A stretch of DNA of 64,000 nucleotides from Candidatus Heimdallarchaeum endolithica (GCA_021513715.1 CP084167.1:640001-704000), one strand, 5' to 3'. Shown: positions 59,140 through 59,522, counted from the first letter of the stretch. The notes: generated by a model from the sequence alone, not told the origin. Made by a program: numbers and translations.

Positions 59140-59522
59140 CATGAGTTGAAATTTTACGTAATTTCTTCAGGACTCTCCCCAACCAATCAACAAACTTAGC
59201 GAAAGTTGTGAAGACTGGCTTAAGAGAACATGAAAGACACAGTCTTAATTAAGTTCTCTAAGGGGTTCATCTCCTTATCCCGGGCACTCATAACTCCCAA
59301 AGGGAAGACCGGGTGTCGTAGGAGTGAAACCTACGTCTTTAAGCATATAGCTCAAGACACTAGATAAATTAGAATTAAATATATAAAGATAGCTGAAAAG
59401 TTGTGACACTCCCTAATATCGTGTATGTATTCTTTATTTTTGCAAATGTGTTTCAGGTTGTTATTGGTCTGATAACTCCACAAACTAAAAATTTAGTTTA
59501 TTACGTAAAAAAGTATCTCATG
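59140..59522. mobile_element. 383-bp non-autonomous/composite element bounded by facing TIRs and CATG
   Basis: Left CATGAGTTGAAATTTTACGTAA versus right (reverse complement) CATGAGATACTTTTTTACGTAA, 17/22 identical. Confidence 0.7.
59144..59358 (-). ncRNA. Second copy of the structured element-end RNA, with upstream TATA box
   Basis: TTTATATA at 59387-59380; stems CGTAGG/CCTACG, CCCGG/CCGGG, AGGA/TCCT, CCCC/GGGG, AGAGAAC/GTTCTCT and AGCCAGTC/GATTGGTT; ends at the TIR. Confidence 0.6.

What the first reader, a model, noticed from the sequence alone, without database searches (positions are those of the whole stretch)
59140..59390. Covarying structured RNA conserved at two diverged element ends, with a kink-turn-like motif
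Seen: 59358->59144 (minus) and 51898->52029 (plus) share an order of elements: closing stem, ATGA, inner stem enclosing two hairpins, AGAGT, GAA.AA, TTACGTAAAA, CATG. The stem sequences differ but still pair (CCCC/GGGG vs TGTCT/AGACA; AGAGAAC/GTTCTCT vs CTCAAC/GTTGAG; AGCCAGTC/GATTGGTT vs CAAGAG/CTCTTG). The 59-kb copy has a TTTATATA box upstream and no nuclease gene. Inference: a conserved ncRNA family, possibly an orphan guide RNA acting in trans; the opposed tandem GA pairs resemble an L7Ae-binding kink-turn.
Basis: partly seen in the sequence, partly recalled or inferred. Interest (0 to 1): 0.75.

Follow-up and report, generated by a model that had tools for sequence, protein, structure and literature searches.

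The report
Guide-RNA scaffold of TnpB transposons
The two look-alike folded RNAs are the guide-RNA (omega RNA) scaffolds of TnpB nuclease transposons in an Asgard archaeon, one behind a broken tnpB gene and one on a 379-base gene-less mini-transposon; the RNA is real and conserved, but this kind of element is already known and the proposed kink-turn does not hold up.

Summary
Both stretches share one architecture with different but still pairing helices. The 51.9-kb copy follows a truncated tnpB. The 59.1-kb copy lies in a 379-bp MITE (window 59141-59519, minus strand). This MITE has about 20 full copies in this genome and 6 in a sister species.

A covariance model built only from tnpB-linked copies finds the MITE copy (36 bits, E 2e-6). 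TnpB homologues at 40-46% identity in other genera carry the same scaffold:
- a hairpin inside the tnpB 3' end;
- a pseudoknot whose 3' strand abuts the transposon end;
- a covarying helix Px;
- an almost invariant loop, AG-AUGA-N / N-GAGU;
- a three-way junction.

Across 26 distinct helix sets, 93% of cells pair, against 81% after shuffling. G-U pairs outnumber A-C cells 42 to 8, which indicates an RNA read on the tnpB strand.

Inside the MITE family the RNA part is 90-96% conserved and the spacer 77%. A TATA box sits 22 nt upstream of the first hairpin.

So this is an omega RNA and a stand-alone omega-RNA MITE, a known kind. Use by a TnpB in trans is plausible but untested. The kink-turn register conflicts with the covarying helix. 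Earlier reports of this scan reached the same reading on other copies in this genome.

The parts
59141..59519 (-). 379-bp gene-less mini-transposon (MITE) that carries the 59-kb RNA; the CAT on its left flank (59520-59522) is the presumed TAM/target
   Evidence: blastn finds about 20 full copies at 92-100% identity plus diverged and partial copies in this genome. Six full copies are in the sister genome G006. A 24-copy alignment defines both ends. No ORF with a TnpB match.
59497..59519 (-). Left end with the TTTTTTACGTAA palindrome, the inverted counterpart of the tail at the right end
   Evidence: Motif listing and alignment A5. R1 gives a weak hit on the opposite strand at 59497-59522.
59380..59387 (-). 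TTTATATA, an archaeal TATA-box-like promoter element 22 nt upstream of the first RNA hairpin
   Evidence: Its T-ATA-A core is invariant in all 24 MITE copies, including those whose spacer is only 43-53% identical. Promoter activity is inferred.
59318..59358 (-). Two 5' hairpins (H0a 59335-59358, H0b 59318-59334). H0a is homologous to the hairpin encoded in the last codons of tnpB in relatives.
   Evidence: Fold. 93-95% identical even in the most diverged MITE copies. The GTCTTGAGCC..GGCTACAGAC counterpart lies inside the tnpB 3' end of G002-type elements, and GGGCTCAGCC..GGTTGCAGTCCC in the 51-kb copy.
59273..59313 (-). Helix P1 (CCCGG/CCGGG) enclosing a small hairpin and the 5' pseudoknot strand ATGAGT (59286-59291)
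   Evidence: Covaries with CGTGG/CCACG in the tnpB-linked families.
59167..59277 (-). Core: Px 5' half, AG bulge, AUGA, N, P2, hairpins P3 (59223-59259) and P4 (59181-59220), P2, N, GAGU, Px 3' half
   Evidence: CM R1 hit at 59140-59305, 36.3 bits, E 2e-6. Helix table over 32 homologues. A multi-branch junction is predicted in most homologues.
59141..59166 (-). Tail with the TTACGTAAAA palindrome and the 3' pseudoknot strand ACTCAT (59141-59146); last bases of the element
   Evidence: The pseudoknot hexamers covary: ATGAGT/ACTCAT, ATGATT/AATCAT, ATAAGT/ACTTAT.
59121..59140 (-). Flank that would be read as the guide of this copy
   Evidence: Position directly 3' of the scaffold, as in ISDra2 (PMC10097598). 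Every copy has a different flank. Transcription into the flank is inferred.
51369..51773 (+). C-terminal remnant of tnpB (aa 351-486 of a 486-aa protein) with the zinc ribbon and RuvC-III
   Evidence: Pfam PF07282, E 2.5e-8. tblastn 85% identity to intact copies.
51744..52028 (+). Omega RNA scaffold of the truncated tnpB element: H0a in the last codons (51744-51768), P1 from 51840, PK 5' strand 51885-51890, core 51898-52002, tail, PK 3' strand 52023-52028
   Evidence: CM R1 214 bits. Fold z -4.8. Coordinates.
52029..52048 (+). Flank that would be the guide of the 51.9-kb copy
   Evidence: Directly 3' of the element end.

Best explanation
Both stretches are omega (right-end) guide-RNA scaffolds of one clade of TnpB RNA-guided nucleases.

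What is there:
- In complete 1.86-kb elements the RNA starts in the last codons of tnpB and runs about 285 nt to the right end.
- It folds into 5' hairpins, helix P1, helix Px, a conserved AG-AUGA-N / N-GAGU loop, and a three-way junction (P2, P3, P4).
- It ends in a hexamer that pairs back to a loop in P1 (pseudoknot), directly before the transposon boundary. The next roughly 16-20 nt of host DNA are therefore transcribed as the guide.
- The 51.9-kb copy belongs to an element whose tnpB has lost its first 350 codons.
- The 59-kb copy belongs to a 379-bp MITE. It kept the two ends, a TATA box, the last bases of the tnpB 3' end, and the whole scaffold.

Inferred mechanism:
- The MITE RNA is made from its own promoter.
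- It is bound in trans by TnpB from the resident elements (about 8 intact copies of one type, 2 of another).
- It directs cleavage of the empty site (CAT followed by the guide match) after excision, so that recombination restores the element. This is the model established for IS200/IS605 TnpB.

Shown here: homology, covariation, linkage to tnpB, copy number, and selective conservation of the RNA part.

Inferred: transcription, TnpB binding, the TAM, and trans use. The enzyme that moves these elements was not identified.
For: Linkage to tnpB and copy number:
- The 51.9-kb copy lies 125 nt downstream of a PF07282 frame.
- The genome holds 14 copies of this tnpB, about 8 of them full length, each followed by the same RNA.

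Homology of the 59-kb copy:
- Model R1, built from 12 tnpB-linked copies only, finds the 59-kb copy and four diverged MITE copies full length, at E 2e-6 to 0.01.
- TnpB homologues at 40-46% identity in other genera of the same family carry the same parts in the same order.

Covariation:
- Px appears as UCAGG/CCUGA, UUCGU/GCGAA, UGAGG/CCUCA, CAAG/CUUG, CGAG/CUCG and UUCCU/AGGAG. P2 and the pseudoknot also show compensated changes.
- 411 of 442 cells pair. After shuffling partners the mean is 357 and the maximum of 1000 shuffles is 376.
- 42 G-U pairs against 8 A-C cells.

Comparison with the solved system:
- The pseudoknot lies next to the guide, as in the ISDra2 omega RNA (PMC10097598).

Constraint inside the MITE family:
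- RNA segments are 90-96% identical, the spacer 77%. In the most diverged copies the spacer falls to 43-53% while the 5' hairpins stay at 93-95%.
- 94% of cells pair, with many G-U to G-C or A-U changes.
- The TATA core is invariant.

Precedent:
- Stand-alone omega RNAs that work in trans, and omega-RNA-bearing PATEs, are described.
Against: - There are no expression data, so no transcript or processing has been shown.
- The MITE scaffold is closest to that of TnpBs found only in other genera. No tnpB with this exact scaffold is in this genome or its sister. The resident TnpBs differ from the MITE in every helix, so trans use needs cross-compatibility.
- Covariation within the young MITE family alone is weak: 3 compensated pairs, and 21-40 of 500 shuffles do as well.
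- The TnpB has Gly at the RuvC-II glutamate position (VVVG[YF]P). This is described as a rearranged, probably active site (PMC10691335), but activity is unproven.
- TnpB is recognised by Pfam only through its TNB domain, and no PDB sequence match was found.
- The predicted TAM of 3 nt (CAT) is shorter than the tested TnpB TAMs cited here (5 nt, IS607 TnpBs).
Confidence: 0.85

Rival explanations
1. The omega RNA scaffold contains a kink-turn-type protein-binding site at the AG-AUGA-N / N-GAGU loop. This site would recruit the archaeal K-turn protein L7Ae into the TnpB ribonucleoprotein.
For: - AUGA and GAGU are the most conserved scaffold bases. The A-U and U-G pairs are 26/26 and the two G-A cells 25/26 and 23/26.
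- They resemble the RUGA and UGA cores of box C and box D (my own knowledge).
- The N.N position next to them is variable and mostly non-Watson-Crick, like position 3b.3n of kink-turns.
Against: - In both possible orientations the canonical register fails. The helix that covaries (Px) starts 2 nt after the 3' GA and ends 4 nt before the 5' GA.
- The invariant AU and GU can pair with each other. This leaves only a 2-nt bulge (AG, GU, AA or AU) two base pairs away from the G-A pairs.
- The G of the 3' GA is A or U in elements with intact tnpB: AAGU in the 1138-kb copy, UAGU in the 52%-identity family.
Confidence: 0.12
2. The conserved structure serves only at the DNA level. It would be a set of transposase-binding sites or single-strand DNA hairpins of the transposon end, and no functional RNA is made.
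For: - The TTACGTAAAA palindrome occurs at both ends as an inverted repeat and is shared by unrelated tnpB families of this genus. At least the tail is therefore a DNA-level signal.
- IS200/IS605 ends use DNA hairpins.
Against: - Covariation extends over 200-285 nt, far beyond the termini, and includes a long-range pseudoknot.
- G-U pairs (42) greatly outnumber A-C cells (8), so only the tnpB-sense strand folds.
- The scaffold is kept in relatives whose tails lack the palindrome.
- The 5' hairpin is kept in the MITE although it no longer codes.
Confidence: 0.04
3. The 59-kb copy is a passive hitch-hiker. The MITE is moved through its ends, and its RNA is a leftover that no resident TnpB uses.
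For: - No cognate tnpB with this scaffold is in this genome or the sister genome.
- The copies are young (92-100% identity), so conservation among them proves little.
- The window copy's subfamily has an A.G mismatch in Px, UAAGG/CCUGA against UCAGG/CCUGA in older copies.
Against: - Between diverged subfamilies and across two species the RNA part is far better kept than the spacer and even the left end.
- The TATA core is invariant.
- The loop and pseudoknot bases shared with the resident TnpB scaffolds are intact.
Confidence: 0.25

Closest known systems
ISDra2-type TnpB omega RNA (reRNA) of IS200/IS605 elements (PMC10097598)
   Same: - Starts in or near the tnpB 3' end and ends at the right transposon end, with the flank as guide.
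- Multi-stem scaffold.
- A pseudoknot formed by the bases just 5' of the guide.
   Different: - No sequence similarity and no Rfam match.
- About 220-285 nt with a three-way junction.
- Element ends carry inverted palindromes, and the target is CAT|G.
- The TnpB is about 486 aa with Gly at the RuvC-II Glu position.
- No matching Y1 transposase was found.
Stand-alone omega RNAs (Altae-Tran 2021, as summarised in PMC10691335) and omega-RNA-bearing PATEs (bioRxiv 10.1101/2023.03.14.532601)
   Same: - A mobilised, protein-less element.
- It keeps the transposon ends and a complete guide-RNA scaffold.
- It sits in a genome that holds effector-encoding relatives.
   Different: - Archaeal (Asgard) host.
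- It has its own conserved TATA box.
- Its scaffold is closest to TnpBs of other genera, not to the resident ones.
- Trans activity was not tested.
RAGATH-18-derived reRNA of IS607 TnpB (PMC11061315)
   Same: A conserved RNA core downstream of tnpB, with invariant purine-rich internal-loop bases that were proposed to form an E-loop or kink-turn.
   Different: - No match to any Rfam family even at E up to 5.
- Different TnpB clade.
- No serine recombinase lies next to these elements.
aCas1-associated TnpBs of Asgard archaea (Cas1H-Asgard-1/-2, PMC10691335)
   Same: The protein is 33-39% identical to TnpBs of another Asgard family. Their downstream regions carry the published GTTCACTCA signature.
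   Different: - Those loci have an internal variable segment between conserved motifs.
- They lack the AUGA/GAGU-Px-pseudoknot design.
- No Cas1 gene lies next to the elements here.
Box C/D-type kink-turn bound by L7Ae
   Same: Opposed G-A dinucleotides in the RUGA / UGA context, next to a variable non-Watson-Crick pair.
   Different: No 3-nt bulge abutting the G-A pairs, and no helix starting directly after the 3' GA. The helix register fixed by covariation is incompatible with a kink-turn.

Membership tests
TnpB omega RNA (OMEGA guide RNA) | Encoded at the 3' end of tnpB, on the same strand, overlapping or following the ORF | tested here: met
   All tnpB copies of this clade in this genome, its sister and other genera are followed by the scaffold. 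The first hairpin lies in the last codons.
TnpB omega RNA (OMEGA guide RNA) | The scaffold ends exactly at the transposon right end, so the flank supplies a copy-specific guide | tested here: met
   Similarity stops after ..TCAT in 46 ends, and every flank differs.
TnpB omega RNA (OMEGA guide RNA) | Guide-adjacent pseudoknot | tested here: met
   The terminal hexamer is the exact complement of a loop hexamer in nearly all homologues. Two positions show compensated changes. Compare PMC10097598.
TnpB omega RNA (OMEGA guide RNA) | Conserved secondary structure supported by covariation | tested here: met
   The test is not phylogeny-corrected.
TnpB omega RNA (OMEGA guide RNA) | Transcribed, bound by TnpB, and guides DNA cleavage next to a TAM | not testable with these tools
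   No expression or biochemical data. The TAM (CAT) is inferred from left flanks.
TnpB (RuvC nuclease) | RuvC-I Asp, RuvC-II Glu, zinc ribbon, RuvC-III Asp | tested here: inconclusive
   - IDLGI (RuvC-I), CxxC..CxxC and HSDLTGA (RuvC-III) are present.
- The RuvC-II Glu position is Gly in the whole clade. This matches the published RuvC-II-rearranged groups.
- Pfam hits only PF07282. No PDB sequence hit.
Stand-alone omega RNA / PATE-like MITE | No protein gene, both transposon ends kept, multiple dispersed near-identical copies | tested here: met
   379 bp. About 20 full copies here and 6 in the sister species.
Stand-alone omega RNA / PATE-like MITE | A compatible effector encoded elsewhere in the same genome | tested here: inconclusive
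   Related TnpBs are present. Their scaffolds share the loops and pseudoknot logic with the MITE, but not the helices.
IS200/IS605 family | Y1 (HUH) TnpA that recognises subterminal hairpins; insertion 3' of a short target without target duplication | tested here: inconclusive
   - No target duplication, and insertion after CAT.
- The only Y1 tnpA of the genome (925 kb) sits in an element with different, GC-rich end hairpins.
- That tnpA is itself interrupted by a MITE.
Kink-turn | 3-nt bulge flanked 5' by a Watson-Crick helix and followed directly by the tandem G-A pairs; the opposite strand runs from GA straight into the helix | tested here: not met
   The covarying Px helix is offset by 2 nt (GU) on the 3' strand and 4 nt (AG+AU) on the 5' strand.
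Kink-turn | Tandem sheared G-A / A-G pairs | tested here: inconclusive
   The sequence allows them in 23-25 of 26 helix sets. The 3' G is A or U in two families with intact tnpB. Geometry cannot be tested.
Kink-turn | Binds L7Ae | not testable with these tools
   Needs a gel shift or a structure.
Any Rfam family | Score at or above the gathering threshold | tested here: not met
   No hit in the window. Only noise at E up to 5 on 11 homologues and on the MITE.

The most novel reading that the evidence does not exclude
The nearly invariant AG-AUGA-N / N-GAGU loop between Px and P2 may be a non-canonical kink-type docking site for a host RNA-binding protein such as L7Ae. In that case TnpB ribonucleoproteins of this Asgard clade would need a cellular cofactor. 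The gene-less MITEs would then be a self-transcribed guide library that widens what the resident nucleases target.
Probability: 0.1. Interest if true: 0.6.

Novelty: new member of a known kind. Interest (0 to 1): 0.3.

Why it matters
It gives a well-supported secondary-structure model for the guide RNA of a poorly characterised TnpB clade. The model covers the 5' hairpin in the ORF end, P1, the pseudoknot, Px, the conserved loop and the three-way junction. This clade is archaeal, has Gly at the RuvC-II glutamate position, and is related to the aCas1-associated TnpBs of Asgard archaea.

It also documents a recently active omega-RNA-only MITE with its own promoter box. This is useful for annotating Asgard genomes and for anyone who wants to reconstitute these nucleases. 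It does not reveal a new kind of system.

Tried and rejected
- Rfam, at gathering thresholds and at E up to 5: nothing, including RAGATH-18.
- Model R1 searched over 47 genomes of the order: hits only in this genus. With filters off it does not reliably align the homologues of other genera. The cross-genus helix table was therefore made by anchor parsing in a script.
- RNAalifold on the tnpB-linked family proposed a long-range pairing, GUGGAGU with ACUUUAC, in place of P1. I rejected it because P1 covaries across families (CCCGG/CCGGG against CGUGG/CCACG).
- Empty-site test for this insertion in the sister genome: no usable empty site. The left flank matched only dispersed repeats there, and the right-flank gene's counterpart differs at its N-terminal end.
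- Looking for the mobilising enzyme:
  - The only Y1 tnpA has different ends and is broken by a MITE.
  - The two serine recombinase genes and three Cas1 loci are not next to any element. The MITE fragment 2.4 kb from one recombinase is only a truncated copy.
- Off-site guide matches: only chance near-matches in an AT-rich genome. The many hits of one flank come from a partial resemblance to the CRISPR repeat.
- TnpB homologues at 33-39% identity in another family lack this scaffold and carry the aCas1-type signature instead.
- Kink-turn registers in both orientations, a sarcin-ricin/loop-E reading and a hammerhead core were checked by eye against the conserved bases. None fits.

Full report
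**The observation**

Reading both places shows the same order of parts in the two copies. The parts, 5' to 3', are:
- a hexamer ATGAGT (59-kb copy) or ATGATT (51.9-kb copy);
- the 3' half of a helix;
- a short linker;
- ATGA;
- a closing stem: CCCC/GGGG, or TGTCT/AGACA;
- two hairpins: AGAGAAC/GTTCTCT and AGCCAGTC/GATTGGTT, or CTCAAC/GTTGAG and CAAGAG/CTCTTG;
- GAGT;
- a tail with TTACGTAAAA;
- ..TCAT.

Each stretch folds better than all 200 dinucleotide shuffles, with z -4.1 and -4.8, and the three-way junction appears in both minimum-energy folds. The TTTATATA box is at 59380-59387. No TnpB-like frame lies near the 59-kb copy.

**What the two places are**

The 51.9-kb copy starts 125 nt after a 139-codon open frame (51354-51773). 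This frame matches the Cas12f1-like TNB domain of TnpB at E 2.5e-8. It is 85% identical to residues 351-486 of a 486-aa TnpB present in 14 copies in the genome, about 8 of them full length.

Complete elements are about 1.86 kb and hold only tnpB. They begin with G[C/A/T]TTCTATTTTTTACGTAA directly after a flanking CAT, and they end with ..CTTTACGTAAAAAAGTAAATCAT.

The 59-kb copy is the right two thirds of a 379-bp element (59141-59519, minus strand):
- It has about 20 full copies at 92-100% identity, plus diverged and partial copies.
- Six full copies lie in the only other genome of the genus.
- It has no ORF with a TnpB match.
- It begins after CAT with GAGATACTTTTTTACGTAA and ends ..TTACGTAAAATTTCAACTCAT.
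- Its flanks show no target duplication.

One older copy sits inside codon 3 of a Y1 transposase gene. Removing it restores ATG CCA T|CG GGA in frame. This fixes the insertion at CAT| within the ambiguity of the repeated CAT.

**Is the RNA similarity more than shared transposon ends?**

I built covariance model R1 from 12 tnpB-linked copies only.
- It finds the 59-kb copy over the full model length: 59140-59305, 36.3 bits, E 2e-6.
- It finds four diverged MITE copies at E 1.6e-5 to 0.01.
- It finds the right end of a second, 52%-identical TnpB family at 66 bits.

I then took TnpB homologues from other genomes of the phylum and read their 3' flanks. Homologues at 40-46% identity from other genera of the same family show the same design. 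Parsed by anchors, the design is:

Px 5' half, 2-nt bulge (mostly AG), AUGA, N, P2 ... P2, N, GAGU, Px 3' half, tail, terminal hexamer.

The terminal hexamer is the exact complement of a hexamer in the P1 loop.

Over 26 distinct helix sets:
- Px changes with compensation: UCAGG/CCUGA, UUCGU/GCGAA, UGAGG/CCUCA, CAAG/CUUG, CGAG/CUCG, UCGAG/CUUGG, UUCCU/AGGAG.
- P2 changes: CCCC/GGGG, GUCU/AGAC, UCCU/AGGA, CCCU/AGGG, GUCA/UGAC.
- The pseudoknot changes at two positions: AUGAGU/ACUCAU, AUGAUU/AAUCAU, AUAAGU/ACUUAU.
- 411 of 442 cells pair. When whole 3' strands are swapped among sequences the mean is 357 and the maximum of 1000 shuffles is 376.
- 42 G-U pairs against 8 A-C cells show that only the tnpB-sense strand folds.

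The sequences are related, so these figures are not probabilities. Most homologues are predicted to close a multi-branch junction with P2.

**The 5' hairpin and the origin of the MITE**

The first hairpin of the MITE RNA is GUCUUGAGC..GCUUAAAGAC (59335-59358). It aligns with GUCUUGAGCC..GGCUACAGAC, which in G002-type elements encodes the last residues of TnpB (..VLSQWLQT). It also corresponds to GGGCUCAGCC..GGUUGCAGUCCC at 51744-51768 in the window's tnpB remnant.

So the RNA begins inside the ORF end, as in known omega RNAs. The MITE is an internal deletion derivative that kept this hairpin although it no longer codes.

The MITE scaffold is closest to that of the G002-type TnpBs of other genera. 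In this genome their nearest relative is the 486-aa type, at 45% identity. Only the tail differs. In this genus all three element families carry the TTACGTAAAA-type palindrome there and at the left end, which is probably the signal for a shared, unidentified transposase.

**Constraint on the MITE RNA**

In the 24-copy alignment from two species, mean pairwise identity by segment is:

| Segment | Identity |
|---|---|
| Spacer | 77% |
| Left end | 87% |
| RNA segments | 90-96% |

Against the most diverged copies the spacer drops to 43-53% while the 5' hairpins stay at 93-95%.

On my structure 94% of cells pair, with many G-U to G-C or A-U changes. Only three pairs show compensated changes, and that is not significant for so young a family. 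The TATA core is invariant and lies 22 nt upstream of the first hairpin.

**Mechanism**

By homology with ISDra2, the bases just 5' of the guide form the pseudoknot and the flank supplies the guide (PMC10097598). By the homing model for IS200/IS605, the RNA would load TnpB and direct cleavage of the rejoined empty site next to the left-flank motif CAT (bioRxiv 10.1101/2023.03.14.532601).

For the MITE the nuclease must come in trans. Stand-alone omega RNAs that work in trans, and omega-RNA-bearing PATEs, are described.

Not shown here: transcription, binding, and nuclease activity. The whole clade has Gly at the RuvC-II glutamate position (VVVG[YF]P). This matches the published RuvC-II-rearranged, presumably active groups.

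**The kink-turn**

AUGA and GAGU are the most conserved bases and could form tandem sheared G-A pairs. A kink-turn needs three things in a fixed register: a Watson-Crick helix, then a 3-nt bulge, then the G-A pairs, while the opposite strand runs from GA straight into that helix.

Here the helix fixed by covariation (Px) begins 2 nt after the 3' GA and ends 4 nt before the 5' GA. The invariant AU and GU can pair with each other (A-U and U-G in 26 of 26 sets). What remains is a 2-nt bulge two base pairs away from the G-A pairs.

Forcing the canonical register gives A.G, G.G or U.U at the first helix positions. The opposite orientation fails as well.

The 3' G is A or U in two families with intact tnpB.

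[quoted passage not shown] A protein-docking loop is therefore not far-fetched, but membership in the kink-turn class is not met.

**Relation to earlier work of this scan**

Notes on other copies in this genome reached the same reading: guide-RNA-only TnpB mini-transposon, pseudoknot, CATG target, unknown transposase. I formed my reading before seeing them and re-tested the points I use.

**Verdict**

This is a real, well-conserved RNA. It is a new member of a known kind (TnpB omega RNA and stand-alone omega-RNA MITE). It carries a conserved internal loop of unknown role that is not a canonical kink-turn.

Noticed in passing
L001 (genome 923629-926979); tnpA at genome 925129-925479, minus strand: The only Y1 (IS200-type) transposase gene of the genome (PF01797, E 1e-38) is interrupted inside codon 3 by an 86%-identical copy of the MITE. 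Excision at CAT| would restore ATG CCA TCG GGA in frame. Its own IS605-type element (tnpA plus a 403-aa TnpB with PF01385) has GC-rich end hairpins unlike the TTACGTAAAA ends.
   Followed up: partly
window 58717-58851 (+): A mini-element of about 135 bp, with at least 30 copies here (87-93% identity) and many in the sister genome. It starts with GTTCACTCA and ends ..GTAAAAAAGTAAATCAT|G, the same terminus as the tnpB elements. R1 gives a weak full-length hit (58783-58852, 18.8 bits, E 0.017). It may be a further reduced derivative.
   Followed up: partly
window 58844-59068: A second dispersed repeat family of about 225 bp (more than 30 copies at 74-81% identity) lies directly beside the MITE. 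The 58.7-60.3 kb stretch is a nest of small elements.
   Followed up: no
window 59973-60328 (+): A third gene-less insert interrupts the ORF that starts at 59520. It begins after CAT with GAAGAGCTTTTTTGTACA and ends ..TTGTACAAAAATTAAGTTGAT|G. Its right part matches the region downstream of a distant TnpB family of this genome (genome 2689426, 2834503, 3216864). It is therefore probably another omega-RNA MITE with a TTGAT-type end.
   Followed up: partly
window 59520-59522: The CAT next to the MITE's left end is, on the plus strand, the ATG start codon of the ORF at 59520-60008. The MITE therefore sits exactly between that gene and its upstream region.
   Followed up: no
window 51086-51375 versus 55045-55335: The DNA just upstream of the tnpB remnant is a 77%-identical inverted duplicate of the 3' end of the gene at 54084-55337. 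The element was therefore truncated by a rearrangement, not by simple decay.
   Followed up: no
L099-L118 (other Asgard family, TnpB 33-39% identical): Their downstream regions carry GGAACACAGAAGTTTC, a variable segment, then GTTCACTCAC. This is the signature published for aCas1-associated Asgard TnpBs. They lack the AUGA/GAGU-Px design.
   Followed up: partly
genome 1049610-1058524 and 1243186-1249008: Two large CRISPR arrays (about 116 and 76 repeats, period about 77) with a 37-nt repeat that begins GTTGCAATTAGG and ends GAATTGAAAT. The flank of the MITE copy at genome 1237434 resembles the repeat's 3' half (ATAGTGAGAAT).
   Followed up: no
window 59267-59277 and alignment A5: The window copy and its 11 closest relatives have UAAGG/CCUGA in Px (an A.G mismatch). 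The other 12 copies have UCAGG/CCUGA.
   Followed up: no
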